20,000 bases of DNA from an uncultured virus (IMG/VR IMGVR_UViG_3300048018_000259) (taxonomy: Duplodnaviria; Heunggongvirae; Uroviricota; Caudoviricetes; Crassvirales): the IMG/VR virus record IMGVR_UViG_3300048018_000259. The stretch is one strand, 5' to 3'. Positions 1,214 through 19,062 of the stretch are shown in pieces. Under the pieces are notes generated by a model that saw nothing but the letters and a program-made list of their open reading frames with translations, had not been told where the DNA came from and searched no databases. Position 1 is the stretch's first letter, and every line of letters starts with the position of its first letter. The position numbers and the translations under genes were made by a program.

Positions 1214-3601
1214 CTATATGAAAGCTTGCATGCCTTGTTCAGGCTGATTTTCAAAGTCTATTGGTAAGCCGTCATTTTTTCTTTGACTTATTAATTCACT
1301 TTGTTGTGTAGCTTCCATTTTGCTACGTTTATCTTTACGATCTTCAATTGCTCCTTCTTTTTGCTGGATTGTTTGAACATCTAATTGTTTAAGTTGCATA
1401 TCGTATTGGAATTTTGATTGCATTTTTTGCGCTTCTAATTGCGCTGCTATTTCCATACGTTGTATTTCCATTTGATTTTTTGATTGCTCAAATTGAACAT
1501 TAGCTCCCATTATAGCTTCTTGCTTTTGTACTTCAGCCATTGCTGTTTTTTCTGCAGTATCAGCTTGTGCTTGCCCTTGAGCTGCAATATTGGCTTGCTG
1601 GTTAGCTTGATCTTGTTTAGCTTTTGCTTTACGCTTTATTTTAAGCATTTGATTTGCTAGCTTAAGATTTTTTATTTGTCTTAAGTCTATAGCATCTTCC
1701 AAATTCAAACTACCTTGTTGTAATGAAACTTGAATATTTGCTTCAAGCTGTGCTAGCTCTTCGTCATCTGGCTCTAGTTCTAAGAATATGCCAAAGTCAT
1801 GCAGGTTTAAATTTATAACCTCGTCTAAAGTTTTTATATTAAACGTTGATATAGAATTTTGTAATGCACTTCTTGTGAGTGGAAATTCTAAAGCATCTGC
1901 TATTTTAAGAGCAATGTTTTCAGCTAGTTTAAGCGTTATATAAAGACTAGACTGATTAATATGCCTAGTAGCAACATTGGACGCATTAGCAGCCATCTTT
2001 TGCAGTCCTACGAGAGAATTTTTATCCATTGCCGTGCCGTCTCTTGCTTCGTTTAAACCCGTTACATCACGTATCATTTGTAAATAATATTGATACGTTT
2101 GTATAAGTGCTGCAATTTTAGCTTGACCGCTTGAACTATTAAGTTCTTGGATAGGTACTTTACCAGCATTCATATCACCGTCTTGTGTAAGTGATCTACC
2201 TACAATAGAACCTGTTTGGAAATACATATTAAGTGCTTCCGCAGGATTGTAGTTTGTGCCATTACCTAAATCAACTTCCGCAAGCCCGTCCATATCTAAG
2301 TATACACCGTCTGGTACCATACGAGATAAAACTTGCTGCAGCTTTAAATGAGTTAATTGAATCATATCAGCAAAACCAATACATTTGCTTACAATAGATT
2401 CAATTCTTCCTTTGTACATTCTAGGTGCACATATAGCATAATTCATTTCAACCTTAGTTGTATCTGCTACAGGCCTTGACATATTTTCTGCCAACTCCCA
2501 TTTAAGCATATCATTATTGCCTAATACTTTTGCCCCTGTATATAATACTTCAATAGATCTTGATACTCTTTCAAAATTATCATTTTCAGGTGGGTTAAAT
2601 GTATCTGGCTTTTCTAAAGCTTTCATTAACCCTTGTTCTGTTTGCTTTATTTTAAATACTTGATTATGATATGTTTTATATTCAAAGTATAAAACTTGTA
2701 CAGTATTTTTATCGTAATTACCCCATCCTGTTACATATTGACTGTTGCCTGGCATTTTTTGAATTCTTTCAAGCTCCTCTTCTGATATGTTAGGAAATTC
2801 TTTTTTAAGTTCAGGTATTGTTATAGACTTTACTTCGCCTACATAATATATGTCATCAAAGTTTGGATCTTCTGTATAAGAATAAACAGCATAAGCTGGA
2901 TCTACATAATCAACTGTTACACCTTCTGCAGTATTAAAGCCTGTTTTAGCAATAGCAATCCCTAGAACAGTTAAATCCATGTTTAATCTTTTCCTAGTAA
3001 GATCGTATTTGTTTTGAGCAAGTACAGACGATATAGCTTCTTCTTCTGCTATTTCAATTGATTGCTTGTAGCTTAGTTGCATATGAAGTTCAAGCTCTTC
3101 TTTAGACTCTGGTATTGTATCTATATTAGGTGTTTGGTATAAATCAATTCCTAATGTTTGTTTTAAACTATCTAAATACTCTTTAGCTACCATATCCTCA
3201 TAAAGCATAGAAGCATAATCTGTTCTTTTCTTTATTGATTGAGGATCTTGTGCATATGCTTTTATATCATAAGACTTAGATGAAATACCATTAACCACTA
3301 TATCTACAAATTTAGATAATATGGGCACAGGTTTCCAGTCTAAGTTTAAATAAGACAAATCGCCATTAATTGACAGCTCATCTTTATACTTTTGTATTGA
3401 TTGCTCTCCTCGAGCATATAATCTTAATTGGTGAAATTGATTCCAACTAGTTAAATATCTATTACCGTTAGTTCGACCTTGACCAAACCATTCGTATTCA
3501 ATAGCCTGCCCAACTTGCGTACCATATTCCAAACTTGCTTTTTCTGCGTCACTTACTACCTGACTTGGAAAAGCGCTGTTTGTGTTAGTATATATACTCA
3601 T
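1214..3601 (-). CDS. Portal protein
   Basis: 795 aa, directly after the large terminase (TAA-ATG abutting at 3602/3601). Portal-like features: LDWKPVPILSKFVDIVVNG near the N-terminus, IRDVTGLNEARDG, and a long Gln-rich coiled-coil C-terminus. Confidence 0.85.
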   Translation of the reverse strand: MSIYTNTNSAFPSQVVSDAEKASLEYGTQVGQAIEYEWFGQGRTNGNRYLTSWNQFHQLRLYARGEQSIQKYKDELSINGDLSYLNLDWKPVPILSKFVDIVVNGISSKSYDIKAYAQDPQSIKKRTDYASMLYEDMVAKEYLDSLKQTLGIDLYQTPNIDTIPESKEELELHMQLSYKQSIEIAEEEAISSVLAQNKYDLTRKRLNMDLTVLGIAIAKTGFNTAEGVTVDYVDPAYAVYSYTEDPNFDDIYYVGEVKSITIPELKKEFPNISEEELERIQKMPGNSQYVTGWGNYDKNTVQVLYFEYKTYHNQVFKIKQTEQGLMKALEKPDTFNPPENDNFERVSRSIEVLYTGAKVLGNNDMLKWELAENMSRPVADTTKVEMNYAICAPRMYKGRIESIVSKCIGFADMIQLTHLKLQQVLSRMVPDGVYLDMDGLAEVDLGNGTNYNPAEALNMYFQTGSIVGRSLTQDGDMNAGKVPIQELNSSSGQAKIAALIQTYQYYLQMIRDVTGLNEARDGTAMDKNSLVGLQKMAANASNVATRHINQSSLYITLKLAENIALKIADALEFPLTRSALQNSISTFNIKTLDEVINLNLHDFGIFLELEPDDEELAQLEANIQVSLQQGSLNLEDAIDLRQIKNLKLANQMLKIKRKAKAKQDQANQQANIAAQGQAQADTAEKTAMAEVQKQEAIMGANVQFEQSKNQMEIQRMEIAAQLEAQKMQSKFQYDMQLKQLDVQTIQQKEGAIEDRKDKRSKMEATQQSELISQRKNDGLPIDFENQPEQGMQAFI

Positions 3602-5815
3602 TTAACTTATTATTTTTGATATTGAACCTTTGTTGTCGTATTTTTTAATTCCTAAATCAACTGGCAATGGCCTTTCTCTTTTAGGACCTGGCGTGTATCT
3701 ATGTTTGTTACATGCCATTAATGCTAAGCCGGAGCTTATAGATGCATCGTGTTTTGTTCTATTATTAATATTAAACTTTGCCCAATCTTCTAATGTTCTT
3801 TGAAAGTATACGTCGCCGTATCCTGTTTCTTTTAGCCCTACAAATTCATTTATATATGTTTCTATAGCGGCTGCGTGAGCTTGTTTTATATCTTCACTTG
3901 AGTTTGGTATACCACCTAACTCTCTTTCTGTTACTGATAATTTGTTATATTTTCTATCCGGTCTATTAATTGAATAGCCTCTATAGCCTCTTCGTTTGAA
4001 ATGATATAACAATCTTGGTTTGTTATTTTCTGCTAGTATGGGCATTCCGTAAAAAACACATGCCATAAGCACATCTTCAAAAAATATTTCAGCTGTTTGT
4101 GGTCTAGCTATATATTCTAAAAAGAAATGATTAGGAGGCACATCTTCCATGCTAAACTTCGTTAAACCGTGAAGAGCGCCTTTCGACCCCCTACCGTCCA
4201 CAGTGCCTGATATATCATATGGATCACAACCAAATGCTCCACAATGCTCATTGCCAGGATAATTAGTACCATTTTTTATATATCTTTTATTTTGCAAGTT
4301 TGCCGGCGGAACCCAAGTTACTAAAAATCTACCATCATTATTTGGAACAAATATTACTTTAGTATCTTTTTCTCCGTGCTCCCATTGAAAACTTCCTCTT
4401 GTTACGTTGATTGAGTTTTTAAGATCTTCATTAAAATCTATTTGTTGATATATCTTAGTTAGATTAAATAAGGATTGTTTTGATTCATCTCTAAATGCGT
4501 GCTTAGTTGTACGCGGAAATTGTCTGTAAAATTCATTTAAACTATCTTGATCTGATTTTAAACCTTCTACTTCATTTTCCCAGTACTCTATTACGCCTTG
4601 TGTTATTTTTGTTCCGTGTGGATCTGTAACTTCTTTTTTTGGTGTGTTGAATACAGGTAAGCCATAAGAATCAATGTATCCTTCGTAGTTCCATTCCATA
4701 GGTATGAACAAAGAATAGAGTCCTGAGCGAGTCTGTCCGTTGGCGTTTCTTTGTGTAACATCTGAATCATTATAAAGCTTTTTAAAATTATCGCCGCCTT
4801 TATCTAATGAGTTTGACGTTGATCCCATCATACATTTACCTATTACTCTACTACCTAATCTAAGGGTGGTTTTCGTAACACGCCAGTTGTTGAGGATGTT
4901 GTTGGGCCTTTCCCATTTCCCCGATTCATCGTGGACGAGGAGTTTGAGTTTCTCCCCATCATAGGCGTTGTCGCCGGTGTTCTTCCAGTCGATGGTGGTG
5001 TCCAAACCGGTAATTTCTTGTATTTTTTCGTTGGCTTCAAGCTTTCTACGGGTAAATTTGGAGGCAGGGACTCTGTAGGCGAGCTCGGTCTTTGGCCTGT
5101 CCATACCGTCCTGGATCGGTTTGAAAAAGAAGGGATAGTTGACGGAAATAGGTACGACCTTATCTGTGAACATCTTTTTAGCATCGGCACCAGATTTGGA
5201 CAATATGCCAAACCGTGAATCCGTTGATATTGTAGCAAGGTTGACCGATTCAGCTGAGGACATAAATGAAAATCCGCTTCGACGGTTTTTAAGATAACAC
5301 ATTCCATATGACCTGGTATCGGATTTGCATGCCTCCCAAAATATGTAGAATAATCTATTCGATTCCCTAAAGTCTGGTTGCCCGACGTCAATCTTACTCC
5401 ACTGCAAGTACATATAATAAGTGCCAGTAATGTAAGTAGGAATACCTTTGCTAATGAACCAAAAGCCTTCTTCACGTCGTATAAATTCTTCATCAATATA
5501 GTCATACCATTTTTCTTTAAAATCTAACGGGTATTCTTCCCAGTCAAATACAGATTTAATTTTTTTTAATTCTTTTGGGTATTCAGAATAAGTCCATTTA
5601 TCATTTTCAAATTCAACTACATTAGCTTTTTTAGGCAAAGCTATTTTTAAGTTTTGTATTTCGTATATTTCTCCTATCTCACCTGTTTTACTTATAACGA
5701 CAAGATCGTGCTCTTCGTTATAGCCATATTCCCATTTTTTATACCTATTCATTCTTTTAAGAACTTGAGGCTTTACATGGTCTTTTAATACTTTATATAA
5801 AGTTTGTTCGTACAT
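3602..5815 (-). CDS. terL: Terminase large subunit
   Basis: 737 aa. Walker A-like LKNRRSGFS, Walker B LLVHDESGKW, coupling motif MMGSTSN, and RNase H-like nuclease acidic motifs FGCDPYD and HDASISSGLAL. Adjacent to the portal gene. Confidence 0.92.
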   Translation of the reverse strand: MYEQTLYKVLKDHVKPQVLKRMNRYKKWEYGYNEEHDLVVISKTGEIGEIYEIQNLKIALPKKANVVEFENDKWTYSEYPKELKKIKSVFDWEEYPLDFKEKWYDYIDEEFIRREEGFWFISKGIPTYITGTYYMYLQWSKIDVGQPDFRESNRLFYIFWEACKSDTRSYGMCYLKNRRSGFSFMSSAESVNLATISTDSRFGILSKSGADAKKMFTDKVVPISVNYPFFFKPIQDGMDRPKTELAYRVPASKFTRRKLEANEKIQEITGLDTTIDWKNTGDNAYDGEKLKLLVHDESGKWERPNNILNNWRVTKTTLRLGSRVIGKCMMGSTSNSLDKGGDNFKKLYNDSDVTQRNANGQTRSGLYSLFIPMEWNYEGYIDSYGLPVFNTPKKEVTDPHGTKITQGVIEYWENEVEGLKSDQDSLNEFYRQFPRTTKHAFRDESKQSLFNLTKIYQQIDFNEDLKNSINVTRGSFQWEHGEKDTKVIFVPNNDGRFLVTWVPPANLQNKRYIKNGTNYPGNEHCGAFGCDPYDISGTVDGRGSKGALHGLTKFSMEDVPPNHFFLEYIARPQTAEIFFEDVLMACVFYGMPILAENNKPRLLYHFKRRGYRGYSINRPDRKYNKLSVTERELGGIPNSSEDIKQAHAAAIETYINEFVGLKETGYGDVYFQRTLEDWAKFNINNRTKHDASISSGLALMACNKHRYTPGPKRERPLPVDLGIKKYDNKGSISKIIS
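4855..5505 (-). CDS. Candidate overprinted membrane/lipoprotein nested in the +1 frame of terL
   Basis: 216-codon ORF on the same strand as terL. N-terminus KK...VFLLTLLALIICTCSG resembles a signal peptide or TM helix ending in Cys, and the C-terminus is Pro/Thr/Ser-rich. It coincides with a GC-rich, C3-biased stretch of terL that ends at this ORF's stop codon. An alternative start is the Met at 5493. Confidence 0.55.
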   Translation of the reverse strand: MTILMKNLYDVKKAFGSLAKVFLLTLLALIICTCSGVRLTSGNQTLGNRIDYSTYFGRHANPIPGHMECVILKTVEADFHLCPQLNRSTLLQYQRIHGLAYCPNLVPMLKRCSQIRSYLFPSTIPSFSNRSRTVWTGQRPSSPTESLPPNLPVESLKPTKKYKKLPVWTPPSTGRTPATTPMMGRNSNSSSTMNRGNGKGPTTSSTTGVLRKPPLD

Positions 5816-6090
5816 TACTTAGATCTACCTTCAGCAAAACCTCTAAAAGACTTTTCTTCTTTTATTTCTTTAGGCTTTTCATTTAACAAATCTTCTTCAG
5901 CTTCAATGCGATTAAGTATTTCAAAGCAATCAAATATTGCTAGCTTTTTTGTGGCTGCAGCATTTTTAAGTCTATCTGCTGATATGTCATCATCAGAATC
6001 AACAATAGGTTCTTTTGCTACCTTTATTAATTCTTCAACAGCTATTTGACCAGCTAGGATTATATTCTTCTTCGTTTCCTTTGTGTTCAT
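5815..6090 (-). CDS. Probable terminase small subunit
   Basis: 91 aa helical, charged protein immediately upstream of terL with a TAATG stop/start overlap at 5813-5817. The assignment is positional. Confidence 0.5.
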   Translation of the reverse strand: MNTKETKKNIILAGQIAVEELIKVAKEPIVDSDDDISADRLKNAAATKKLAIFDCFEILNRIEAEEDLLNEKPKEIKEEKSFRGFAEGRSK

Positions 6091-6640
6091 ACTTAATTAC
6101 AATATCATTTGATTTCATACAATATAAACGCTTACCTTCAATTAAAAATTCCCATTCACCATTAGGTTTGTAACCTACTAGGTCGCCTGGGTTAATATTA
6201 AGCGCTTTTAAGAAGCTATTGCCGTATTTTAATATACCAATAAGACTTTGCTCTTTTTCCAATGTTAAAGACTCTTTGTCTTTTATCGGTGTTATAAAAC
6301 ATCTGTCATTAAACGAATTCCAACCTGTTTTATTTTTATATAAATATATTTGGTCTGCAGCACAAAAATATAAGTTATCTTTAAACCAAGATCTACTTTT
6401 TTTCTTATCACCTTTCATATCATAAAATGTTCTAAACACATTTTGATGAATGACAATTGTATCGCCTGCTTTAATCCCTGTGCTAAAAGCTTTGGGGGTT
6501 TCTAAAACTTTAGCTAACCTATTTACAAATTTAAAATCTTCTATACCTGTGTTTACGATTAGCTGCTTGTTACCAACTTTAATTTTATTACTGTACTCAT
6601 CGCCTAGCGGTTCTACAATAAAGTCGTATATACTTTTCAA
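6035..6640 (-). CDS. Tandem (two-domain) GroES/Cpn10-like co-chaperonin
   Basis: 201 aa with two GroES-like halves: MKSIYDFIVEP...AKVLETP...IKAGDTIVIH and SFNDRCFITP...GILKYG...INPGDLVGYKPNGEWEFLIEGKRLYCMKSNDIVIK. These match the GroES pattern DRV-V...G-V...V-VGD-V...I-G--Y--M-E-DI. Confidence 0.65.
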   Translation of the reverse strand: MKSIYDFIVEPLGDEYSNKIKVGNKQLIVNTGIEDFKFVNRLAKVLETPKAFSTGIKAGDTIVIHQNVFRTFYDMKGDKKKSRSWFKDNLYFCAADQIYLYKNKTGWNSFNDRCFITPIKDKESLTLEKEQSLIGILKYGNSFLKALNINPGDLVGYKPNGEWEFLIEGKRLYCMKSNDIVIKYEHKGNEEEYNPSWSNSC

Positions 6641-7737: not shown

Positions 7738-8136
7738 TTATTTATTACTTATTGATTTATACTTTTCAAAACCACGTGAGCCAAAATATGCTACATACAC
7801 GGTTGTTAATAATTGTTTTAATAATTCTATCCATTCCTGTTCTACAGTAAATGAAATTTCGTGATGACTATCAACCCATATAAAGGCTATAGCCATAAAC
7901 GATAAGAATATGAGCGCCATAGGGCGCGTGTTTTTACTAAGCCACGAATCGGATGTCATATCTGATTCCCAGCGTTTTGTTATTTGGTCTTCTGCATTAG
8001 CTGCGGCTTTTTCAACTATGACTTGAATTTCTTTTTTAATCTGAAGCTTTTCTTCGTCTGTAGTTGTAAGCTTGTCAATAACGTCACCAACATCTTTGAT
8101 AACGTTACCGCTTAGCCATTCCCAAATTTTTTTCAA
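7738..8136 (-). CDS. Holin, GTA 3TM-holin-like family
   Basis: 132 aa. Pattern: VIDKLTTTDEEKL...RWESDMTSDSWLSKNTRP, a hydrophobic helix (MALIFLSFMAIAFIWV), a second helix (LLTTVYVAYFGSRGFEK). The YFGxRxxEK ending is characteristic of this family. Confidence 0.75.
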   Translation of the reverse strand: MKKIWEWLSGNVIKDVGDVIDKLTTTDEEKLQIKKEIQVIVEKAAANAEDQITKRWESDMTSDSWLSKNTRPMALIFLSFMAIAFIWVDSHHEISFTVEQEWIELLKQLLTTVYVAYFGSRGFEKYKSISNK

Positions 8137-8139
8137 ATT

Positions 8140-8484
8140 TTATTCTTTTTTAGTAAGCTCAATTATTCCGTGAAAATCACCGCTGAATTCACAAATAATA
8201 GTTTTTTTGTTTTTTAATCTATACTTTATAATTACCTCATATCCATTTCTAGGATTATAACATTCAGTTGTAAATGTATAATCATCTTGATGTAAAATAG
8301 TTTCTTTAATATAGTTGTCAAATTTAAAGCTAAAATTAAACACCTGTAGCACAGCATAGTCGCTTGCTATAATAGTAGTTACATATGATGATGTGTCTGT
8401 AACCCATTCGCCCTCAAATTGCTTTTGTGCTTGAGTTGTTAAAAATGTTAATACGCTAAATAGTGTAATAAATAATTTTTTCAT
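8140..8484 (-). CDS. Secreted/periplasmic protein with Sec signal peptide
   Basis: MKKLFITLFSVLTFLTTQAQ is a classic signal peptide with cleavage before Gln, as is common in Bacteroidota. It is followed by FEGEW and alternating beta strands. Confidence 0.65.
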   Translation of the reverse strand: MKKLFITLFSVLTFLTTQAQKQFEGEWVTDTSSYVTTIIASDYAVLQVFNFSFKFDNYIKETILHQDDYTFTTECYNPRNGYEVIIKYRLKNKKTIICEFSGDFHGIIELTKKE

Positions 8485-9768: not shown

Positions 9769-10149
9769 TTAACTAAAAGCTGCAGCAGTGTAAGTTACAA
9801 AAGTAGCTGGCGCTGTTATTAATATTTTTCCTTGTTGCCCTGATTGAGCTGCTGGTACTTGTGCAGTTTTTATAGGTGATCCAAGTGTAGATGTAATTCC
9901 TCCTGGGTTTGCAGTTAAAGCAGAATTAAAAGCAGCTAAAACATCTCCAGCTACTAAAGCAGCAGTGTGAGTTACTTCTACAACATCAAAAGCTGCAGCA
10001 GCGTTTAATAAAATTCTAGTTTTAGTTGTTGGATTTGCTCCAGGTCCAGCTACATCTCCAGGTATTACTGATACTACTTGGTCAATTGCTATTAATTGTT
10101 CTGGTGTATTAGCCACTCCAGTTAGTGGGATCTTTAAAAATTTTGCCAT
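9769..10149 (-). CDS. Hypothetical protein, possibly virion structural
   Basis: 126 aa, Ala/Thr/Pro/Gly-rich and low in charge, with strong T/A-ending codon usage. Confidence 0.65.
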   Translation of the reverse strand: MAKFLKIPLTGVANTPEQLIAIDQVVSVIPGDVAGPGANPTTKTRILLNAAAAFDVVEVTHTAALVAGDVLAAFNSALTANPGGITSTLGSPIKTAQVPAAQSGQQGKILITAPATFVTYTAAAFS

Positions 10150-10153
10150 TTTT

Positions 10154-10187
10154 TGTTAGTGTTAGTGTTAGTGTTAGTGTTAGTGTT
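10154..10187. repeat. Hexanucleotide tandem repeat (TGTTAG)5+TGTT; (AACACT)n on the coding strand
   Basis: Read directly from the sequence. It ends 4 nt upstream of the ATG at 10149. Confidence 0.95.
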
Positions 10188-12224: not shown

Positions 12225-12481
12225 AAAACAACAACTACATCCTGCGCTTTAATTACGTGATATGTTTGTTTATTTATTTCTATTTTATGCCCCGCGTGCC
12301 GATCAAAAAAGATTTTGTCTTTTTCTTTTAACCCTTCTACTTGTTCGCCTAGTGATAATACTGTGGCTTGTGTATAACGAATGTCGTCACGTTGGTTTTC
12401 TGCAAGAAGTAAACCACCTTTTGTTTTAGTTGTTCCTTCTTTTAACTTTTCTATTATTATATTTCTACCTATCGCTTTCAT
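12221..12481 (-). CDS. groES: Co-chaperonin GroES (Cpn10)
   Basis: MKAIGRNIIIE...TKGGLLL...ATVLSLG...LKEKDKIFF...IEINKQTYHVIKAQDVVVVL. ATG at 12481 (the track starts at the preceding TTG). Overlaps the groEL 3' end. Confidence 0.88.
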   Translation of the reverse strand: MKAIGRNIIIEKLKEGTTKTKGGLLLAENQRDDIRYTQATVLSLGEQVEGLKEKDKIFFDRHAGHKIEINKQTYHVIKAQDVVVVL

Positions 12482-14018
12482 CAATTCTTAAATTATTGAT
12501 TACACAATCAGTTGATAATATCGTTGTTGCTACTGAAGCTGCGTTCTGAAGAGCGCTTTTGGTGACTAACAAAGGATCTATAATACCTGTTTTAATCATA
12601 TTTACCATTTTTCCTGTAACCACATTTAATCCTCGTCCTTTAGCTTTTGGTAATTCCGCTTCCGTTATACCGGCATTTTCTAATATAGTCTTAAAAGGTG
12701 CTTTAATGGCTTCTAGGAGCACTTCTTCACCTTTTGTTTTACTTACTATACTTGTTGATGCATTTAATAAAGCAATTCCACCTCCAGGCACTATACCTTC
12801 TTTAATCGCAGCTTTTGTAGCACAAATAGCATCTTCAACCCTATCTGTTTTTTCTTTTAATTCGATATCAGAATTAGCGCCTACTTTTACAATAGCTATT
12901 CTAGCCGCAAGCATTGCTAATCTTTTTTCTAATTTTATTACTTTATGAGCCGGATTGTCTTTCGACAACTCTTCTTTTAATTCAGCTATAATGTTTAAAA
13001 CTTCTTCTGTAGGTTCGTTAAACTGCAATATAGTTTCTTGATGCGTTGTAACGCTTTTTAAACAAAAGCCTAAATGCTCAACTTGAATCAAATCTAAATC
13101 ATCGCCTAAGTCTTCATTTATAATTGTAGCTCCTGTTAACAAAGCTAAATCATCAAGCATTTCTTTTTTGCTTATACCATAAGTAGGAGCATTAATAACA
13201 TTTACTTTAATGTTTCCTTTCTTTTTATTCATAGCTAAAGCAGATAAAACACCTTGTTCTAAGTCGCCGATAATCAGCAAAGGTTTGTTGTTTTTTATTA
13301 CATACTCTAGCACTGTTTGAATTTGCCTAATTGTATCAACTGGTGATTCAACTAGCAATACTAATGCGTTTTCTAATTCAGCTGATTTGCTTTGAGCGTT
13401 TGTTATAAAGTGTGAATTAGTAAGACCTTTGTCATACTGAACACCATCTACAACTTCAACTTCTGTTTTGCCATCAGCTGCTGTTTCCAGCATTACAATC
13501 CCCGTGTTATCTACGGATCTAAAAGCGTCAGCTATAATGCTTCCTAGCTTTGGATCGTTATTGGTTGATATGGTTGCTATTTGATCAATCATATCGCCTT
13601 CAACCGGTACTGATACAGATTCTAAGTATTTGATTACTTTTTCAACTGCATTGTTAATACCTTCTTTTAACTCTCTCGAGTTTGTTTTGTCCGCTACTTT
13701 ATAAGCTTCGGTTAATATTGAGTGAGCTAAGACAGTTGCGGTAGTTGTACCATCACCGGCTTCTCTCACCGTTTTTCTTGCTGCTTCTTTTAAAAGTGTT
13801 GCACCCATATTTTCAACTGGGTCTCGCAAGATAATCGAGTCTGCTACTGTTACACCGTCTTTTGTTATTACTGGATTACCGGTGTGATCTTCCAGCATTA
13901 CACATTTGCCGCTAGCCCCTAAAGTGGAGCTAACAGCTTTTGTGAGTTTTTCTATTCCTTTAAATACATTAACTCTGGCTTCGTTGCCGAAGTTAAGATT
14001 TTTGACAATTGCGTCCAT
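12465..14018 (-). CDS. groEL: Chaperonin GroEL (Cpn60), phage-encoded
   Basis: 517 aa with ITKDGVTVA, AGDGTTTATVLA, KDRVEDA-like KTDRVEDAICATKAA, GIVPGGG and GIIDPLLVTKSALQNAASVA motifs. Confidence 0.97.
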   Translation of the reverse strand: MDAIVKNLNFGNEARVNVFKGIEKLTKAVSSTLGASGKCVMLEDHTGNPVITKDGVTVADSIILRDPVENMGATLLKEAARKTVREAGDGTTTATVLAHSILTEAYKVADKTNSRELKEGINNAVEKVIKYLESVSVPVEGDMIDQIATISTNNDPKLGSIIADAFRSVDNTGIVMLETAADGKTEVEVVDGVQYDKGLTNSHFITNAQSKSAELENALVLLVESPVDTIRQIQTVLEYVIKNNKPLLIIGDLEQGVLSALAMNKKKGNIKVNVINAPTYGISKKEMLDDLALLTGATIINEDLGDDLDLIQVEHLGFCLKSVTTHQETILQFNEPTEEVLNIIAELKEELSKDNPAHKVIKLEKRLAMLAARIAIVKVGANSDIELKEKTDRVEDAICATKAAIKEGIVPGGGIALLNASTSIVSKTKGEEVLLEAIKAPFKTILENAGITEAELPKAKGRGLNVVTGKMVNMIKTGIIDPLLVTKSALQNAASVATTILSTDCVINNLRIDESDR

Positions 14019-14829: not shown

Positions 14830-17800
14830 TTAGTTTTCTAATTTAGTTATTCTTGTTTTTAAATCTTCTATTATTTCTTGCTGTTCTTTTATTGCGTTTA
14901 TTAATACAGCTGTTAACTCTGAGTAGGCTACAGATTTAAGTCCGTCTTCTGGTGACTCTATTATAAGCTCTGGTAAGACAGCTTCAACGTCTTGAGCTAT
15001 AACACCTACTTTTGTAGCTTCTGTGTTAAAATCAGTTCTATTATAGTAAACACCTTTCATTGCTTGAACCTTACTAATACAATCACTTATTTCAACAACG
15101 TTTTCCTTAACTCTTGCATCGGAGTTTTGTGTTATGGTACCATTGACTGTCATGTTGGCAGTTGATGGGAAAAACGTATATCTAGTTGAGGCTCCATCTC
15201 TCCAATAAATATTACCACAATTCATGTCAAAATAAGTATTGGCATTATTTGTGTGAAACCTAAAATGATTAGCAGTTGCGTAGTTACCTAAATAAAAATC
15301 AGCAACTCCATTACTATCTTTTATTAGCACTCTTCCATCAACGTCTAATGCTACGTTAGAATTAGGAGATGTTGTATTAATACCAATTCTATTATTAAGC
15401 AAGGTTAACATTGGGCTGTCTGTTATTGCCACGCCGTCACCGGCTCTAAAGTTTATGAAATCTGTGCCAGAAGACACTATTCCGGTTACTTCACTGGAAT
15501 TTTCAAAAGCAATATGACCATTAGAGCTAGAGTCATCATCTCGTATATTTAATATAGATTCATTATTAGATGGATTGTTAATATTAACAACATTTAAAGC
15601 ATCTAATCTGTTATGAACAATTGTTTTTACAGCTCCTCCATCTAAGGTTAAAGCAGGGTCGCTGCCTTTGTATTTAAAAATTAGATCTCCAGAACCTGAT
15701 ACTTCTATTATACCGTTATTGTTTCCACCTCCAAAATTTATATCACCAACTACAGATAGCTTAGCACTCGGACTAGTAGTCCCAATCCCGACGTTTCCGC
15801 CTCCTGAATTTAAAATTACATTATTTCCAAGTTGATTTATATAAAGAGGTTTTGATGCGTGACTTTGTATCCAACTGTATGTAGTGTTACCTCCTATTTT
15901 TAAATTTGTACCTGTTGTTTTTATTTCAACCACACCTGTTCCAGCGGCATCATTAGTTCCTTCTATTACAAGTTTTGTTCCAGGCGAAGTCGTCCCGATA
16001 CCAACGTTTTGACTATTGTTTATAAACATAGCTACACTACCTGATGTAGAAAAACTAGTAGCAAATGCTGATTTTATTTGTATATTATTATTAGTATTTT
16101 CTATATAAGAATCACCAGAAACACTTCCGTCACAGAATATTTCAAGATAATCCCCGCTATTGCTGTCGTTGCTTCTTATTTTACCTTCAACATCTAGTGG
16201 AACCGCAGGATTAGTCATACCAATCCCGACGTTACCTTCAACAATTAATCCATTAGTTGGTGCTGAAGTTGCTGTATAGCTACTACCTATACTAGCATTG
16301 CCGCCAACTGTAAGTCTGCTTCCTAATGTATTTGTAGGCGAAGCTCCAATACCCCAAAAACCAACTTGGTTTGTCATAGTAGAAACACCACCATAAATAT
16401 TAGTACTATCCAAGTTACGAAGAATAAGCGCGTATCTTGTAGCGGCAGTTCCTTGTGATTGTATTGCTACTCCATAACCATTAGTTGCATCACTGTTTGT
16501 GAAACTTGCAGCGGTTCCACCACTAGAGGTTGTTTGATTTATTTTACCTAATACATCAAGCGCACTGACAGGACTAGTTACTCCAATTCCAAGTCTACCG
16601 CCGTTAGTTAATACCATTTTTATATTACCAGAAGTATTAATTGGATCAGATGAAGTTCTGAAATCTAAACGCCCATTAGCGTTCATAATACAAACACCTT
16701 CTGCAGCTGTGTCAGTTTGAAAAAATAATCTACCGGAGTTTGAACCAGCTGAGGTGTCTTTTTTTAGTATTAATCCATTTGCTCCGCTTGAGCTAATATA
16801 TAGTGAATTTGTTAAAGGCTCATTTGGTCCAGCAGCTAAAGGTAACCAAGGACCTATAGAACTACCAGCCGTACTTTTTACTATAAGACCATTAGCATCT
16901 GTACCTAGTATATGCGTTGGGCTACCTGTGTTATTTGTGCCATTATAAGCGTTGAATTTTACAGATCCAGCATTATTTATATTTAAAACTTCTGTACCTG
17001 TAATAGAATCGTTTAGCATTCTAACACTAAACGATGGAGTTCCATCAGTTCCCGCTCTAAGGCCACCAATAGCAACGCCATAATTGTTAACTGGTGATGT
17101 TCCAAAAAAGATATTTGTAAAACCACCTGAGTTTGTAGTTGTTGTTGGGTGCAATCTTAAAAAAGAATCTCTATCAAATTGAGTTGTTACTTGTGATCTT
17201 TGAATTTCTAGTTTTCCTGTGGGACTAGTCGTCCCGATACCTACGTTGCCAGTTGAGGTGATACGCATTTGTTCGCTAGCGTCTTTTCTAAATACATGAT
17301 TGTTACCTATTGCTCCGTATTCAATATTTGCAGTGCTTGAATTATCTCTAAATGAAGCAAAACAGTTAGCGTCTGTGCTTGTAGCATATATAGCTCCATC
17401 AAGAGTTCCTGCTGCAATAGTTAGCATTTGACTATCATAACCTGAGTGACCAATACCAACAGTCCCGCTAGGTCTAATACGCATTTTTTCTGTTAGATTT
17501 GTGTACAACGCGAGAGCATCATTACTTACTGAACCAATTACAACTGCACCTATATTAGTATCAAGTAATCCTGTTCTTGTGCCATCACTCCACTGTAATT
17601 TGTAAGAGGGCGTGCAGTTTATTCCTACGTAGCCTGCAGAAGTGATACGCATTCTTTCTATAGGTGTTCCTGTTAAGGTTGGATTAGTTAATATGCTAAA
17701 ATCTCCACCACCTGATCCGTTTCTTTTGTGTCTTAGTATAGTGCCAAAAGTTCCGGCATTAGTATTACCAGCGATCATTTTTAAATCTACATAATCATTT

Positions 17801-19062
17801 GCGGATCCAGATGTTTGGTGTAATTCTAAAGCAACACCACTACCTGCTCTTCTAACATCTAATCTAGAATTAGGATTAGTTGTCATACCAATTCCTAAGT
17901 TACCACTTGGTATATTAGTATCACCAGTATGATTCCAAAGCTGCAAATATCTAGCATCTGTGTAATTATATAATACAACTCTATCTGCTTCATTGTTAAA
18001 CCCACACAAGTCATTTGCTGTTTTTTGATAACCTTGCAAGAATAATTTTCCAGTTGCTATATCTCCTCCATCAGCATTTATTGCAGATCCAGTATAATCT
18101 TTACCACCAGGGTCAGCCGCGTGTTGATTTGCTTGTATTTGCAGCTTTGACTGAGGACTAGTCGTTCCGATCCCGACGTTGCCGTTGTTTTTAACAAACA
18201 TTGCATTGCTAATAATACCACCAGCATTATTACCTACATCAAATCCTAAACCACCATTATCTACTCCTTGTATTCTAGCTAAAGTTCCTCCAGGGTTTGT
18301 AAATGAAATTAATGAATCTAAACCATCTGTTGAATTATGTAATTTTAGTAAATCTTCAGATGTATTTTCCACTACTAGTCTGTAGCCTGTAGGACTAGTC
18401 GTCCCGATCCCGACGTTGCTGTTTGCAAAGTAAGCATCACCACCACCTCCATTTACAACAAAATCAGTTGATCCAACTCTAAATTGTTCTTGTGGAATTA
18501 ATATAGTAGAACTTGCAGCTCCAGGATCTGTAGCTGTTGCACCGCTGTTAACCCAAGTACCAGTTGAATTTTCAGCCACATAAAAACTACCATCTCCAGT
18601 AAATTGAGGAAAAAGTACATATAAAGTATAGGCTGTTGCTGAAGTACCTGCTGCATTTGCCACCCATTTTATATTGCCGCCTCCCAACGATCCACTTGGC
18701 CCAGTAGTATAAAAACTACTATCAGCAGCAAAACCATTTGCATCAGTACTACCACCATTAGATGTTTTAAATCTTATGTATACCTCATAGTTTTGACTTA
18801 TGGTTGCATTGTAACCATTGTTTGATACAATTTTTATAAAAATACTCTTACCACCCTGACTTGCTGTAAATGTACCCATATTTCTCCAAGCAGCACCAGA
18901 ACCTACTGTTCCCACAGTATACACTGAGCTAAAACCTGAAAACCAATCTACACCTGTACCAGTAGACCTTAAGATTTTTTGTGACGTACCTGCATCTCCA
19001 CTTGTATCTAAAAACTTATTTAATATTTGAAGCTCTGTGCTTATTTTTTTTATTTCTGCCAT
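14830..19062 (-). CDS. Long tail fibre / receptor-binding protein with C-terminal intramolecular chaperone (peptidase S74-like)
   Basis: 1410 aa with about 11 G(N)VGIGTT(S/N)P-type repeats separating variable modules. The C-terminus SDARVKENV...KVGVIAQDVEAVLPELI...VAYSELTAVLINAIKEQQ...L is the S74 autocleaving chaperone pattern. Confidence 0.9.
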   Translation of the reverse strand: MAEIKKISTELQILNKFLDTSGDAGTSQKILRSTGTGVDWFSGFSSVYTVGTVGSGAAWRNMGTFTASQGGKSIFIKIVSNNGYNATISQNYEVYIRFKTSNGGSTDANGFAADSSFYTTGPSGSLGGGNIKWVANAAGTSATAYTLYVLFPQFTGDGSFYVAENSTGTWVNSGATATDPGAASSTILIPQEQFRVGSTDFVVNGGGGDAYFANSNVGIGTTSPTGYRLVVENTSEDLLKLHNSTDGLDSLISFTNPGGTLARIQGVDNGGLGFDVGNNAGGIISNAMFVKNNGNVGIGTTSPQSKLQIQANQHAADPGGKDYTGSAINADGGDIATGKLFLQGYQKTANDLCGFNNEADRVVLYNYTDARYLQLWNHTGDTNIPSGNLGIGMTTNPNSRLDVRRAGSGVALELHQTSGSANDYVDLKMIAGNTNAGTFGTILRHKRNGSGGGDFSILTNPTLTGTPIERMRITSAGYVGINCTPSYKLQWSDGTRTGLLDTNIGAVVIGSVSNDALALYTNLTEKMRIRPSGTVGIGHSGYDSQMLTIAAGTLDGAIYATSTDANCFASFRDNSSTANIEYGAIGNNHVFRKDASEQMRITSTGNVGIGTTSPTGKLEIQRSQVTTQFDRDSFLRLHPTTTTNSGGFTNIFFGTSPVNNYGVAIGGLRAGTDGTPSFSVRMLNDSITGTEVLNINNAGSVKFNAYNGTNNTGSPTHILGTDANGLIVKSTAGSSIGPWLPLAAGPNEPLTNSLYISSSGANGLILKKDTSAGSNSGRLFFQTDTAAEGVCIMNANGRLDFRTSSDPINTSGNIKMVLTNGGRLGIGVTSPVSALDVLGKINQTTSSGGTAASFTNSDATNGYGVAIQSQGTAATRYALILRNLDSTNIYGGVSTMTNQVGFWGIGASPTNTLGSRLTVGGNASIGSSYTATSAPTNGLIVEGNVGIGMTNPAVPLDVEGKIRSNDSNSGDYLEIFCDGSVSGDSYIENTNNNIQIKSAFATSFSTSGSVAMFINNSQNVGIGTTSPGTKLVIEGTNDAAGTGVVEIKTTGTNLKIGGNTTYSWIQSHASKPLYINQLGNNVILNSGGGNVGIGTTSPSAKLSVVGDINFGGGNNNGIIEVSGSGDLIFKYKGSDPALTLDGGAVKTIVHNRLDALNVVNINNPSNNESILNIRDDDSSSNGHIAFENSSEVTGIVSSGTDFINFRAGDGVAITDSPMLTLLNNRIGINTTSPNSNVALDVDGRVLIKDSNGVADFYLGNYATANHFRFHTNNANTYFDMNCGNIYWRDGASTRYTFFPSTANMTVNGTITQNSDARVKENVVEISDCISKVQAMKGVYYNRTDFNTEATKVGVIAQDVEAVLPELIIESPEDGLKSVAYSELTAVLINAIKEQQEIIEDLKTRITKLEN

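What the first reader, a model, noticed from the sequence alone, without database searches (positions are those of the whole stretch)
4855..5505. Hidden overprinted membrane/lipoprotein gene inside the terminase ATPase domain
Seen: a 216-codon same-strand ORF in the +1 frame of terL, spanning both Walker A and Walker B. GC jumps over its distal part (hand counts: 29/60 at 4861-4920 and 33/60 at 4921-4980, against 15/60 at 4441-4500 and 16/60 at 5581-5640). The terL codons there end in C (GAC ACC ACC ATC GAC ... CTC AAA CTC CTC GTC CAC), unlike the rest of this A/T-ending genome, and revert right after the nested stop codon (GGT AGT AGA GTA ATA GGT AAA). C at terL position 3 becomes C at position 2 of the nested frame, which gives its Pro/Thr/Ser-rich tail. 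The N-terminus (MKNLYDVKKAFGSLAKVFLLTLLALIICTCSG) is a basic region, a hydrophobic helix and a Cys, resembling a signal peptide or lipoprotein signal. Established: lambda Rz1 (o-spanin) is a Pro-rich lipoprotein overprinted in the +1 frame of Rz. Inference: this may be an envelope protein (spanin-like, other lysis function, or superinfection exclusion) coupled to DNA-packaging gene expression. I know of no described example nested in terL.
Basis: partly seen in the sequence, partly recalled or inferred. Interest (0 to 1): 0.85.

Follow-up and report, generated by a model that had tools for sequence, protein, structure and literature searches.

The report
Hidden gene inside phage terminase
A second, out-of-frame protein-coding gene lies inside the DNA-packaging motor gene of an uncultured marine phage and has been kept open by selection in most of its relatives, which makes it a clean natural example of a new gene born by overprinting.

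Summary
A 216-codon ORF (4855-5505, minus strand) sits in the +1 frame of terL (3602-5815), under the strongest GC3 island in the window.

It is not a composition artefact:
- The frame stays open in 68 of 81 clade members. Shuffling synonymous codons within the region predicts 5-12 stops.
- The GC3 island ends where each lineage's ORF ends. It is absent in the 13 lineages where the frame is broken, and those are scattered over the tree (about 10 losses).
- None of 80 sister-clade terL genes has the open frame, even at GC3 0.5-0.66.
- terL codon choice is fixed site by site so that nested Leu residues of a hydrophobic leader and Ser/Thr clusters in the tail are preserved.

The product is an N-terminal helix followed by about 175 basic, disordered residues. 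The best reading is a real overprinted accessory gene whose product is probably targeted to the membrane.

The lipoprotein/spanin reading is not supported: 2 of 67 proteins have a canonical lipobox. Function is unknown and translation is unproven.

T7 genes 19.2 and 19.3 are an annotated precedent for ORFs nested in terL. This scan has already noted the same gene in two other genomes (e1-5854045, e1-6352766). Five literature searches found no description of it.

The parts
3602..5815 (-). terL, terminase large subunit, 737 aa; the host gene of the overlap
   Evidence: ORF. phrog_6681, E 4.7e-163. No Pfam or NCBIfam hit.
4855..5505 (-). Nested +1-frame ORF, 216 codons plus stop (stop at 4855-4857)
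   Evidence: Open in 68 of 81 clade members. Beyond the shuffle null.
5491..5505 (-). Candidate start codons: ATG at 5503-5505 (M1) and ATG at 5491-5493 (M5). The upstream context is A-rich with no Shine-Dalgarno, like the other genes of the window.
   Evidence: An ATG at one of the two sites in 59 of 68 open-frame sequences and in 0 of 80 sister-clade sequences. Upstream contexts.
5398..5445 (-). Hydrophobic leader (nested aa 21-36), ending in the conserved motif C-T-C-S-G (5398-5412). It overlaps TerL aa 125-139.
   Evidence: Site-specific codon fixation that keeps the nested Leu, Thr, Cys and Ser. Lowest synonymous diversity in the gene. Modelled as a helix over residues 2-41, pLDDT 54-75.
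4858..5397 (-). Basic, Ser/Thr/Pro/Gly/Asn/Gln-rich tail predicted to be disordered (nested aa 37-216): 23 K+R against 7 D+E, and 50% STPGNQ
   Evidence: Composition. pLDDT below 50 for residues 36-211. pI of 9.0 or more in 65 of 67 orthologues.
4882..4950 (-). Two conserved Ser/Thr clusters of the long-form tail (nested aa 186-192 and 202-208), written over the TerL Walker-B region
   Evidence: In the 29 long-form sequences: CTC 27/29, AAC 28/29 at three sites, and ATC 25/29. Shorter, broken and sister sequences use AAT/ATA/TTA at these sites.
4826..5455 (-). GC3 island of terL (terL nt 361-990)
   Evidence: Its extent follows the ORF length in each lineage.

Best explanation
The ORF at 4855-5505 is a genuine protein-coding gene overprinted in the +1 frame on the ATPase domain of terL. 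It arose once at the base of a clade of marine phages related to phages of Flavobacteriaceae, and it is kept there by selection.

Shown here:
- The frame is kept free of stops well beyond what the local codon usage gives.
- terL third positions are recoded toward G/C exactly over the length of the ORF.
- Individual terL codons are fixed so that the nested residues are preserved.
- The recoding decays to the genome's A/T baseline wherever the frame has been broken.

Inferred:
- The gene is translated from the late terL mRNA by internal initiation without a Shine-Dalgarno sequence, at ATG 5505 or ATG 5493.
- The product has a Lys-rich N-terminus, a 14-16 residue Leu-rich helix and small residues (C-S-G) after it. 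This would act as a Sec-type signal peptide or signal anchor with the N-terminus inside.
- The remaining ~180 residues are a cationic, Ser/Thr/Pro-rich disordered chain, placed at or across the cytoplasmic membrane late in infection.
- It is an accessory function, dispensable in about one lineage in six. It most likely acts on the cell envelope (lysis modulation or exclusion).
For: 1. Conservation of the open frame. 68 of 81 sequences (the window plus 80 IMG/VR loci whose TerL is 69-91% identical to the window's) have no +1 stop from TerL codon 140 to at least codon 245.
2. Only the +1 frame is open. The other four alternative frames average 8-33 stops.
3. Shuffle null. With synonymous codons shuffled inside the region, 5-12 stops are expected. 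The observed open run is reached in at most 0.002 of shuffles for 63 of the 69 sequences outside the first 12-member broken set, and in at most 0.022 for all 69. 11 of those 12 broken sequences are not significant.
4. Dose-response in GC3. For long forms (n=29), GC3 is 0.67 and 0.62 in codons 261-290 and 291-320, then 0.24. For forms stopping at codon 290 (n=15) it is 0.56, then 0.27. For short forms (n=20) it is 0.27 and 0.26. For broken forms (n=13) it is 0.16-0.25 throughout.
5. Negative control. In 80 sister-clade terL genes (56-66% identical) the longest open +1 run is 27-119 codons, with 6-21 stops. This holds even at GC3 0.5-0.66, and there is no island (inside and outside GC3 within 0.14 of each other). 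79 of these 80 have Met-(I/M/T/N/K) dipeptides, which force a +1 TGA. 0 of the 68 open-frame sequences do.
6. Site-specific constraint. TerL Thr codons 127, 130 and 132 are ACT in 181 of 184 cases in open-frame sequences. The figure is 19 of 37 in broken sequences and 15 of 142 in the sister clade. The CT at codon positions 2-3 is kept even where the TerL residue changes (Pro/Ala/Ser at 126; Thr/Ser/Ala at 132), which preserves the nested Leu. The tail Ser/Thr clusters are fixed in 25-28 of 29 long forms.
7. Recurrent loss. The 13 broken lineages need 11 parsimony changes, against a mean of 13.2 for shuffled labels. The pairs L037/L014 and L039/L031 have support 1.0.
8. Product. The model shows a helix at residues 2-41 and pLDDT below 50 for residues 36-211. 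62 of 67 orthologues have a 15-residue Kyte-Doolittle maximum of 1.55 or more, and 65 of 67 have pI of 9.0 or more.
9. No sign of an RNA element. The folding z-score is +0.59 and there is no Rfam match.
Against: - There is no direct evidence of translation. The metatranscriptome contigs cannot show frame or strand, and DNA carry-over is possible.
- Overall synonymous diversity of terL is not reduced in the overlap: 0.443 inside against 0.382 outside for long forms, and 0.5-0.63 against about 0.4 for all open forms. Only codons 121-140 and 301-320 show suppression. The middle of the protein appears constrained only in composition and in staying open.
- The link between GC3 and ORF length could partly run the other way, since stops appear wherever GC3 falls.
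- The Fisher tests are not corrected for phylogeny.
- Six of the 68 open-frame sequences lack an ATG upstream of the leader and have only TTG or GTG there.
- The hydrophobic run is short for a membrane span.
- The tail is very basic and carries Arg/Lys two residues after the motif, which is unusual for exported proteins.
- No signal-peptide predictor was available.
- The product has no similarity to any known family, so the function is inference only.
Confidence: 0.78

Rival explanations
1. The ORF is a by-product of composition. A GC-rich patch of terL, present for some other reason, happens to lack A/T-rich stop codons in one frame, and nothing is translated.
For: GC3 is raised exactly over the ORF. 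G/C at terL position 3 removes most possible +1 stops. Overall synonymous diversity is not suppressed.
Against: A shuffle that keeps local codon usage still predicts 5-12 stops, and 63 of 69 sequences reach P of 0.002 or less. Sister terL genes with GC3 0.5-0.66 carry 6-21 stops. T at position 3 would avoid stops just as well, yet C/G is preferred in the tail and T is fixed at the Leu sites of the leader. The island vanishes whenever the frame is broken.
Confidence: 0.04
2. The constraint acts on nucleic acid rather than on a protein, for example a structured RNA or a DNA signal such as a packaging or regulatory site inside terL.
For: Fixation of synonymous codons at particular sites is also what a functional RNA or DNA element would produce.
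Against: The RNA does not fold better than shuffles: z = +0.59, and 13 of 20 shuffles fold at least as well. There is no Rfam match at E up to 1. Stop avoidance is specific to one of five alternative frames. Codon positions 2-3 stay CT through changes of the TerL residue, which conserves an amino acid rather than a base-pairing partner.
Confidence: 0.03
3. One reading: the product is a lipoprotein of the Rz1 / o-spanin type, or another lipoprotein that acts in lysis.
For: The protein is overprinted in a +1 frame. It has an N-terminal basic region, a hydrophobic region and conserved Cys residues (C32 invariant, C34 in at least 90%). The tail contains some Pro. A relaxed pattern that allows Thr at -1 matches 63 of 67 proteins.
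Against: The canonical lipobox [LVI][ASTVI][GAS]C (pattern recalled) is present in only 2 of 67. The first Cys is forced by the TerL Met-Tyr dipeptide. The protein is 216 aa, against about 60 aa for Rz1 (recalled). No i-spanin partner is present and the ORF is outside the lysis region. The gene has been lost about 10 times.
Confidence: 0.07
4. The frame is read by a programmed +1 ribosomal frameshift from terL. This would give a fusion of the TerL N-terminus to the nested sequence rather than an independently initiated protein.
For: The nested frame is on the same strand and the same mRNA. In some lineages the +1 frame is open for up to 56-59 codons before the first ATG in the frame.
Against: A +1 stop lies 0-20 codons upstream of the ATG in most sequences, and directly before it in 12 (L012, L028, L049, L057, L066, L070, L073, L074, L076). 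An ATG at M1 or M5 is present in 59 of 68 open-frame sequences and in 0 of 80 sister-clade sequences. I did not search systematically for a conserved slippery site.
Confidence: 0.05
5. The gene is real, but the product is not an envelope protein. It would be a cytoplasmic, highly basic, disordered protein that binds DNA or RNA or the packaging machinery, with the helix used for oligomerisation or docking.
For: The net charge is strongly positive, with pI of 9.0 or more in 65 of 67 orthologues. The tail is predicted to be disordered. The gene is co-expressed with the packaging motor by construction. The hydrophobic run is short and Arg/Lys follows it closely.
Against: Selection specifically preserves Leu at several positions and small residues (Thr, Cys, Ser, Gly) after them. 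That is the layout of a signal peptide or signal anchor. The gene is dispensable in 13 of 81 lineages, so it is not a core packaging factor.
Confidence: 0.12

Closest known systems
T7 genes 19.2 and 19.3 inside gene 19 (terminase large subunit)
   Same: Both are same-strand ORFs nested in the +1 frame of a podovirus terL (record positions 38016-38273 and 38553-38726 within 37370-39130; frame computed). Both are annotated only as hypothetical proteins.
   Different: They are 85 and 57 codons long, against 216 here. They have no sequence relation to this ORF.
Lambda Rz1 in Rz, and T7 18.7 in 18.5 (o-spanin genes embedded in i-spanin genes)
   Same: Each is an out-of-frame gene embedded entirely in another phage gene and encoding an envelope-targeted protein. 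The T7 record describes 18.7 as expressed from another frame of a gene that completely contains it.
   Different: Spanins have a canonical lipobox, are small, are embedded in their functional partner and sit in the lysis cassette (recalled). Here the lipobox test fails in 65 of 67 proteins, the host gene is terL, and no partner is evident.
phiX174 lysis gene E embedded in scaffolding gene D, and embedded single-gene lysis (Sgl) genes of ssRNA phages
   Same: Each is an overprinted gene lying entirely inside an essential morphogenesis gene, whose active part is a transmembrane domain (PMC4825663, passages read). Sgl genes are small, lack sequence similarity to one another and are embedded (PMC7693330, abstract seen in the listing). 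The architecture here is comparable: a constrained N-terminal hydrophobic helix and a fast-evolving basic remainder. That the rest of E is basic is recalled.
   Different: Those phages are tiny ssDNA or ssRNA phages with no holin or endolysin. This is a dsDNA phage (relatives' records are about 60 kb) with its own holin homologue. The protein is 216 aa and has been lost repeatedly. No lysis activity has been tested.
Overprinted de novo viral genes in general (reviewed in PMC8227390; single-genome detection method in PMC6188560; both seen only as search listings and abstracts)
   Same: It shares the taxonomically restricted distribution, the predicted disorder, the unusual composition and the detection by a codon-permutation test.
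   Different: Most documented cases are in small RNA or ssDNA viruses. This one is a 651-nt overlap on the conserved ATPase domain of a dsDNA phage motor protein. It also has a natural presence/absence series that shows the recoding and its reversal.

Membership tests
Overprinted (out-of-frame nested) protein-coding gene | The ORF is longer than expected given the host gene's protein sequence and local codon usage | tested here: met
   the window reaches P = 0.0004 over 5000 shuffles. 63 of 69 sequences outside the 12-member broken set reach P of 0.002 or less.
Overprinted (out-of-frame nested) protein-coding gene | The open frame is conserved across diverged relatives and absent from outgroups | tested here: met
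   68 of 81 clade members are open. 0 of 80 sister-clade genes are open. MW202828 and Flavobacterium phage elemoF also lack it.
Overprinted (out-of-frame nested) protein-coding gene | Purifying selection acts on the nested frame, seen as constraint on host-gene synonymous sites | tested here: inconclusive
   The constraint is strong and site-specific at the leader and the tail clusters. There is no overall drop in synonymous diversity: 0.443 inside against 0.382 outside. The tests are not corrected for phylogeny.
Overprinted (out-of-frame nested) protein-coding gene | The product is translated | not testable with these tools
   Only metatranscriptome contigs were available. There are no Ribo-seq or proteome data.
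o-spanin / bacterial lipoprotein | A lipobox with Gly, Ala or Ser at -1 before the lipidated Cys (pattern recalled) | tested here: not met
   2 of 67 proteins match the strict pattern. The residue before either Cys is Thr or Ile, and Ser in 2 sequences.
o-spanin / bacterial lipoprotein | Embedded in or adjacent to an i-spanin gene within the lysis cassette | tested here: not met
   The host gene is terL. The holin homologue is at 7738-8136, with three predicted genes and a GroES-like gene in between.
Sec signal peptide / signal anchor | A positively charged n-region, a hydrophobic h-region, and small residues at -3 and -1 | tested here: inconclusive
   The sequence has Lys at positions 6, 12, 13 and 20, a hydrophobic run at 21-34 and C-S-G at 34-36. 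The h-region and small residues are under selection. No SignalP, LipoP or TMHMM was available, and a basic residue follows at +2.
Single-gene lysis protein (phiX174 E-like) | Expression alone causes host lysis by blocking cell-wall synthesis | not testable with these tools
   The resemblance is in architecture only.
Terminase large subunit (host gene) | A full-length match to a terL profile, with the portal gene next to it | tested here: met
   phrog_6681 covers residues 24-734. The portal gene (phrog_6547) is at 1214-3601.

The most novel reading that the evidence does not exclude
A protein born de novo inside the packaging ATPase gene acts at the host envelope as a membrane-anchored, cationic, disordered effector. 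It could be a phiX174-E-like or spanin-substituting lysis accessory, or a late exclusion factor. Because it is written into terL, its dose and timing would be tied to DNA packaging in a widespread group of marine phages related to phages of Flavobacteriaceae.
Probability: 0.15. Interest if true: 0.85.

Novelty: new variant of a known kind. Interest (0 to 1): 0.66.

Why it matters
Long same-strand overlaps are normally discarded when dsDNA phage genomes are annotated. Convincing cases of overprinting come mostly from very small viruses.

In this case a 651-nt second gene is written over the most conserved part of an essential motor protein. Nature also supplies the controls:
- a sister clade that never had the gene;
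- many lineages that keep it at three different lengths;
- about ten lineages that lost it, in which the terL codons relaxed back to the genome's A/T bias.

This makes the cost and mechanics of dual coding directly measurable. It also shows that a local GC3 island inside a phage gene can flag a hidden gene.

The clade is common. More than 600 IMG/VR stretches matched the search patterns, and near-identical DNA is present in seawater and viral metagenomes of at least 10 studies. An unannotated protein, possibly envelope-directed, is therefore widespread among marine phages whose cultured relatives infect Flavobacteriaceae.

Tried and rejected
- Family searches on the nested protein gave nothing. 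Pfam had 0 families. PHROGs gave only phrog_28355 at E 0.085. NCBIfam had 0 and PADLOC 0. ESM Atlas gave no usable hit.
- The large protein database holds 80 relatives of the nested protein (E from 4.8e-97 to 2e-14). All are unnamed or 'hypothetical protein'. Some gene callers have therefore emitted the ORF, but nobody has named it.
- RNA-element idea: folding z = +0.59 and no Rfam match.
- Search for a free-standing copy in lineages that lost the frame. The profile search of 5 partial records (L037, L010, L030, L078, L017) found only the in-terL remnant, with 8-16 TAG/TAA stops. The records are estimated at 7-45% complete, so absence elsewhere is not shown.
- Search for a cultured phage carrying the ORF. 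tblastn against 50,697 phage records gave only a 31.7% frame echo in MW202828. No isolate is available as a model.
- Metatranscriptomes. Contigs of 4 RNA runs cover parts of 4862-5616. They cannot show strand, frame or transcript ends, and DNA carry-over is possible. Uncovered parts mean nothing. One X16 contig joins 4861 to 5811 with a 31-letter side at 90% likeness, which is most likely another organism.
- Overall synonymous-diversity scan, a crude Synplot-style test, showed no global suppression.
- The window's own assembly is not held.
- The notes of this scan by place held nothing.
- Literature: searches returned no paper describing a gene nested in terL of these phages. Subscription journals and supplements were not searched.
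- I did not run a complex prediction, because no binding claim is made.
Full report
**1. The observation**

The window encodes a phage morphogenesis region on the minus strand:
- portal, 1214-3601
- terL, 3602-5815 (phrog_6681, E 4.7e-163)
- a GroES-like gene, 6035-6640
- a holin homologue, 7738-8136
- GroEL, 12465-14018
- a tail fibre gene, 14830-19062

The nearest named phages infect Flavobacterium, Tenacibaculum and Maribacter, at 60-80% DNA identity.

The GC3 island in terL (0.37-0.77 against about 0.2) gives the five highest of 140 sixty-codon GC3 windows across eight long genes of the window. The ORF spans the motifs I take, from recall, to be Walker A (TerL aa 178-183) and Walker B (aa 292-297).

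**2. Chance or composition?**

I collected 80 IMG/VR loci whose TerL is 69-91% identical to the window's. These are the best 80 of more than 600 matching stretches.

In 68 of 81 sequences (window included) the +1 frame has no stop from TerL codon 140 to at least codon 245. The stops fall at a few recurrent positions:
- codons 318/320: 29 sequences
- codon 290: 15 sequences
- codons 245-275: 20 sequences
- codons 308/313: 4 sequences, left out of the class means below

Thirteen sequences are broken, with 6-18 stops. The other four alternative frames average 8-33 stops.

I then shuffled synonymous codons within the region, which keeps the local G/C-rich usage. This still predicts 5-12 stops. The observed open run was reached in 0.0004 of 5000 shuffles for the window. 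It was reached in at most 0.002 of 500 shuffles for 63 of the 69 sequences outside the first 12-member broken set, and in at most 0.022 for all 69. Eleven of the 12 broken sequences were not significant.

**3. The GC3 island follows the ORF**

| Class | n | GC3, codons 261-290 | GC3, codons 291-320 | After |
|---|---|---|---|---|
| Long forms | 29 | 0.67 | 0.62 | 0.24 in codons 321-360 |
| Stop at codon 290 | 15 | 0.56 | 0.27 | |
| Short forms | 20 | 0.27 | 0.26 | |
| Broken forms | 13 | 0.16-0.25 throughout | | |

(All.) Both C and G rise at terL position 3: C from 0.115 to 0.233 and G from 0.112 to 0.19. The direction of cause could in part be reversed, because stops appear where GC3 falls. 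Sections 2, 4 and 5 address that.

**4. Outgroup control**

Eighty sister-clade terL genes (56-66% identical to the window's TerL; relatives of MW202828) have 6-21 +1-frame stops in the same interval. Their longest open run is 27-119 codons. This holds even where their overall GC3 is 0.5-0.66, and inside and outside GC3 differ by at most 0.14. L081 was misaligned in that script. Its terL was checked separately and has no nested same-strand ORF of 70 aa or more. The same is true of Flavobacterium phage elemoF.

Seventy-nine of the 80 sister TerL proteins contain Met-(Ile/Met/Thr/Asn/Lys) dipeptides, which force a +1 TGA whatever the codon choice. None of the 68 open-frame sequences does, and only 1 of the 13 broken ones does. 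The start codon is also clade-specific: an ATG at one of two sites is found in 59 of 68 open-frame sequences and in 0 of 80 sister sequences.

**5. Selection on nested residues**

In the hydrophobic segment, TerL Thr codons 127, 130 and 132 are ACT in 181 of 184 cases in open-frame sequences. The figure is 19 of 37 in broken sequences and 15 of 142 in the sister clade (Fisher 1.5e-13 and 9.5e-69, not corrected for phylogeny).

Where the TerL residue itself varies (Pro/Ala/Ser at codon 126; Thr/Ser/Ala at codon 132), codon positions 2-3 stay CT, so the nested Leu is kept.

Three further TerL codons, counted in the 69-sequence open-frame set, are fixed in the same way:
- Codon 136 is TAC in 64 of 66 (nested Thr rather than Ile).
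- Codon 137 is TTG or CTG in 66 of 69 (nested Cys rather than Tyr).
- Codon 138 is CAG in 54 of 69 (nested Ser rather than Asn).

The broken sequences use TAT, TTA and CAA at these sites.

In the tail, long forms fix CTC (27/29), AAC (28/29 at three sites) and ATC (25/29). These encode two Ser/Thr clusters. All other groups prefer AAT, ATA and TTA at those sites.

Against this, pairwise synonymous diversity is not reduced over the overlap as a whole (0.443 inside against 0.382 outside for long forms). It is reduced only in codons 121-140 (0.27, against 0.52 in broken and 0.58 in sister sequences) and codons 301-320 (0.35, against 0.48 and 0.54). The middle of the protein therefore seems to be held only to composition and openness.

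**6. History**

The 13 broken lineages are scattered in trees built from the C-terminal part, from the overlapped part and from the whole of TerL. Parsimony needs 11 changes, against a mean of 13.2 for shuffled labels. The rooting check in that script printed False, so I use only the root-independent count.

Well-supported sister pairs with and without the frame are L014/L037 and L031/L039 (support 1.0) and L045/L018 (support 0.857). Twelve of the 13 broken TerL proteins remain compatible with an open frame. This fits secondary loss by synonymous decay. The simplest history is one gain followed by about ten losses, so the gene is accessory.

**7. The product**

AlphaFold2, run on 43 of the 67 orthologues, gives a helix over residues 2-41 (pLDDT 54-75) and pLDDT below 50 for residues 36-211. 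Mean pLDDT is 41.9.

The window protein has:
- Lys at positions 6, 12, 13 and 20
- a Leu-rich run at residues 21-34
- C-S-G at residues 34-36
- a 180-residue tail with 23 K+R against 7 D+E, and 50% Ser/Thr/Pro/Gly/Asn/Gln

Across orthologues, 62 of 67 have a strongly hydrophobic 15-residue window. The five exceptions are sequences whose first ATG lies downstream of the leader, and they have upstream TTG or GTG candidates. The pI is 9.0 or more in 65 of 67.

The layout fits a Sec signal peptide or a signal anchor with the N-terminus inside. The residues under selection (Leu in the core; Thr, Cys, Ser and Gly after it) are what such a signal needs. This is inference, because no predictor was available. 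A strict lipobox is present in only 2 of 67.

Genes of this phage have no Shine-Dalgarno sequences. Their starts sit in A-rich contexts, and so does the nested start.

**8. Rivals**

- RNA element: no excess folding (z = +0.59) and no Rfam hit.
- Frameshift fusion: in most sequences, including the window, a +1 stop lies within 0-20 codons upstream of the ATG.
- Spanin: fails the lipobox, partner and location tests.
- A cytoplasmic basic protein cannot be excluded.

**9. Comparison with what is known, and novelty**

Nested ORFs in terL have an annotated precedent in T7: genes 19.2 and 19.3, both in the +1 frame, both hypothetical proteins.

The closest working analogies are these:
- Rz1 in Rz, and T7 18.7 in 18.5.
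- By architecture, phiX174 E, which lies entirely inside gene D and acts through its transmembrane domain (PMC4825663, passages read).
- The embedded Sgl genes of ssRNA phages (PMC7693330, abstract only).

None of these is a homologue. Five literature searches found no description of this gene. Two earlier notes of this scan report the same gene in two other genomes and reached the same reading. Those notes are not independent evidence.

**10. Verdict**

The gene is real with high probability, about 0.85 for 'protein-coding and under selection'. Membrane targeting is likely, about 0.6. The specific function is open. The lipoprotein/spanin label is not supported.

Noticed in passing
window 8140-8484 (-): A 114-aa ORF directly upstream of the holin homologue (7738-8136) begins with a classic-looking signal peptide: MKK, then a hydrophobic run, then a T-Q-A-Q stretch. 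It has no Pfam or PHROG hit. It may be a secreted lysis-cassette partner.
   Followed up: no
window 10150-10180 (-), upstream of the ORF 9769-10149: The 30 bases before this gene's ATG consist of the hexamer CACTAA repeated four times in tandem, followed by CAAAAA.
   Followed up: no
window 12465-14018 and 6035-6640 (-): The phage encodes a GroEL (phrog_5725, E 6e-133) and a GroES-like co-chaperonin (phrog_13932, E 1.1e-22). The GroES-like gene has the same position next to terL as in Flavobacterium phage elemoF.
   Followed up: partly
L165-L169 (in-terL remnants in lineages that lost the frame): All 62 stops in the five decayed +1 frames are TAG or TAA, and none is TGA. This is what decay of terL third positions toward A would give, since a +1 TGA needs G at terL position 3.
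   Followed up: partly
window 4861 / 5811, RNA run X16: One metatranscriptome contig (1105 letters, depth 28) joins 4861 to 5811 and skips 949 bases, which is nearly the whole N-terminal third of terL. The shorter side is only 31 letters at the 90% likeness threshold. It is probably another organism or a chimera.
   Followed up: no
window 5815-6090 (-): A 91-aa ORF whose stop overlaps the terL start is conserved in MW202828 as a 94-aa ORF in the same position. It has no family hit. It could be the small terminase subunit of this group.
   Followed up: no
TerL aa about 121 and 172, sister clade L085-L164: The sister clade has conserved Met-Asn (66 of 80) and Met-Ile (51 of 80) dipeptides, which make an open +1 frame impossible. 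The window's clade has other residues there. These TerL replacements either permitted the birth of the nested gene or followed from it.
   Followed up: partly
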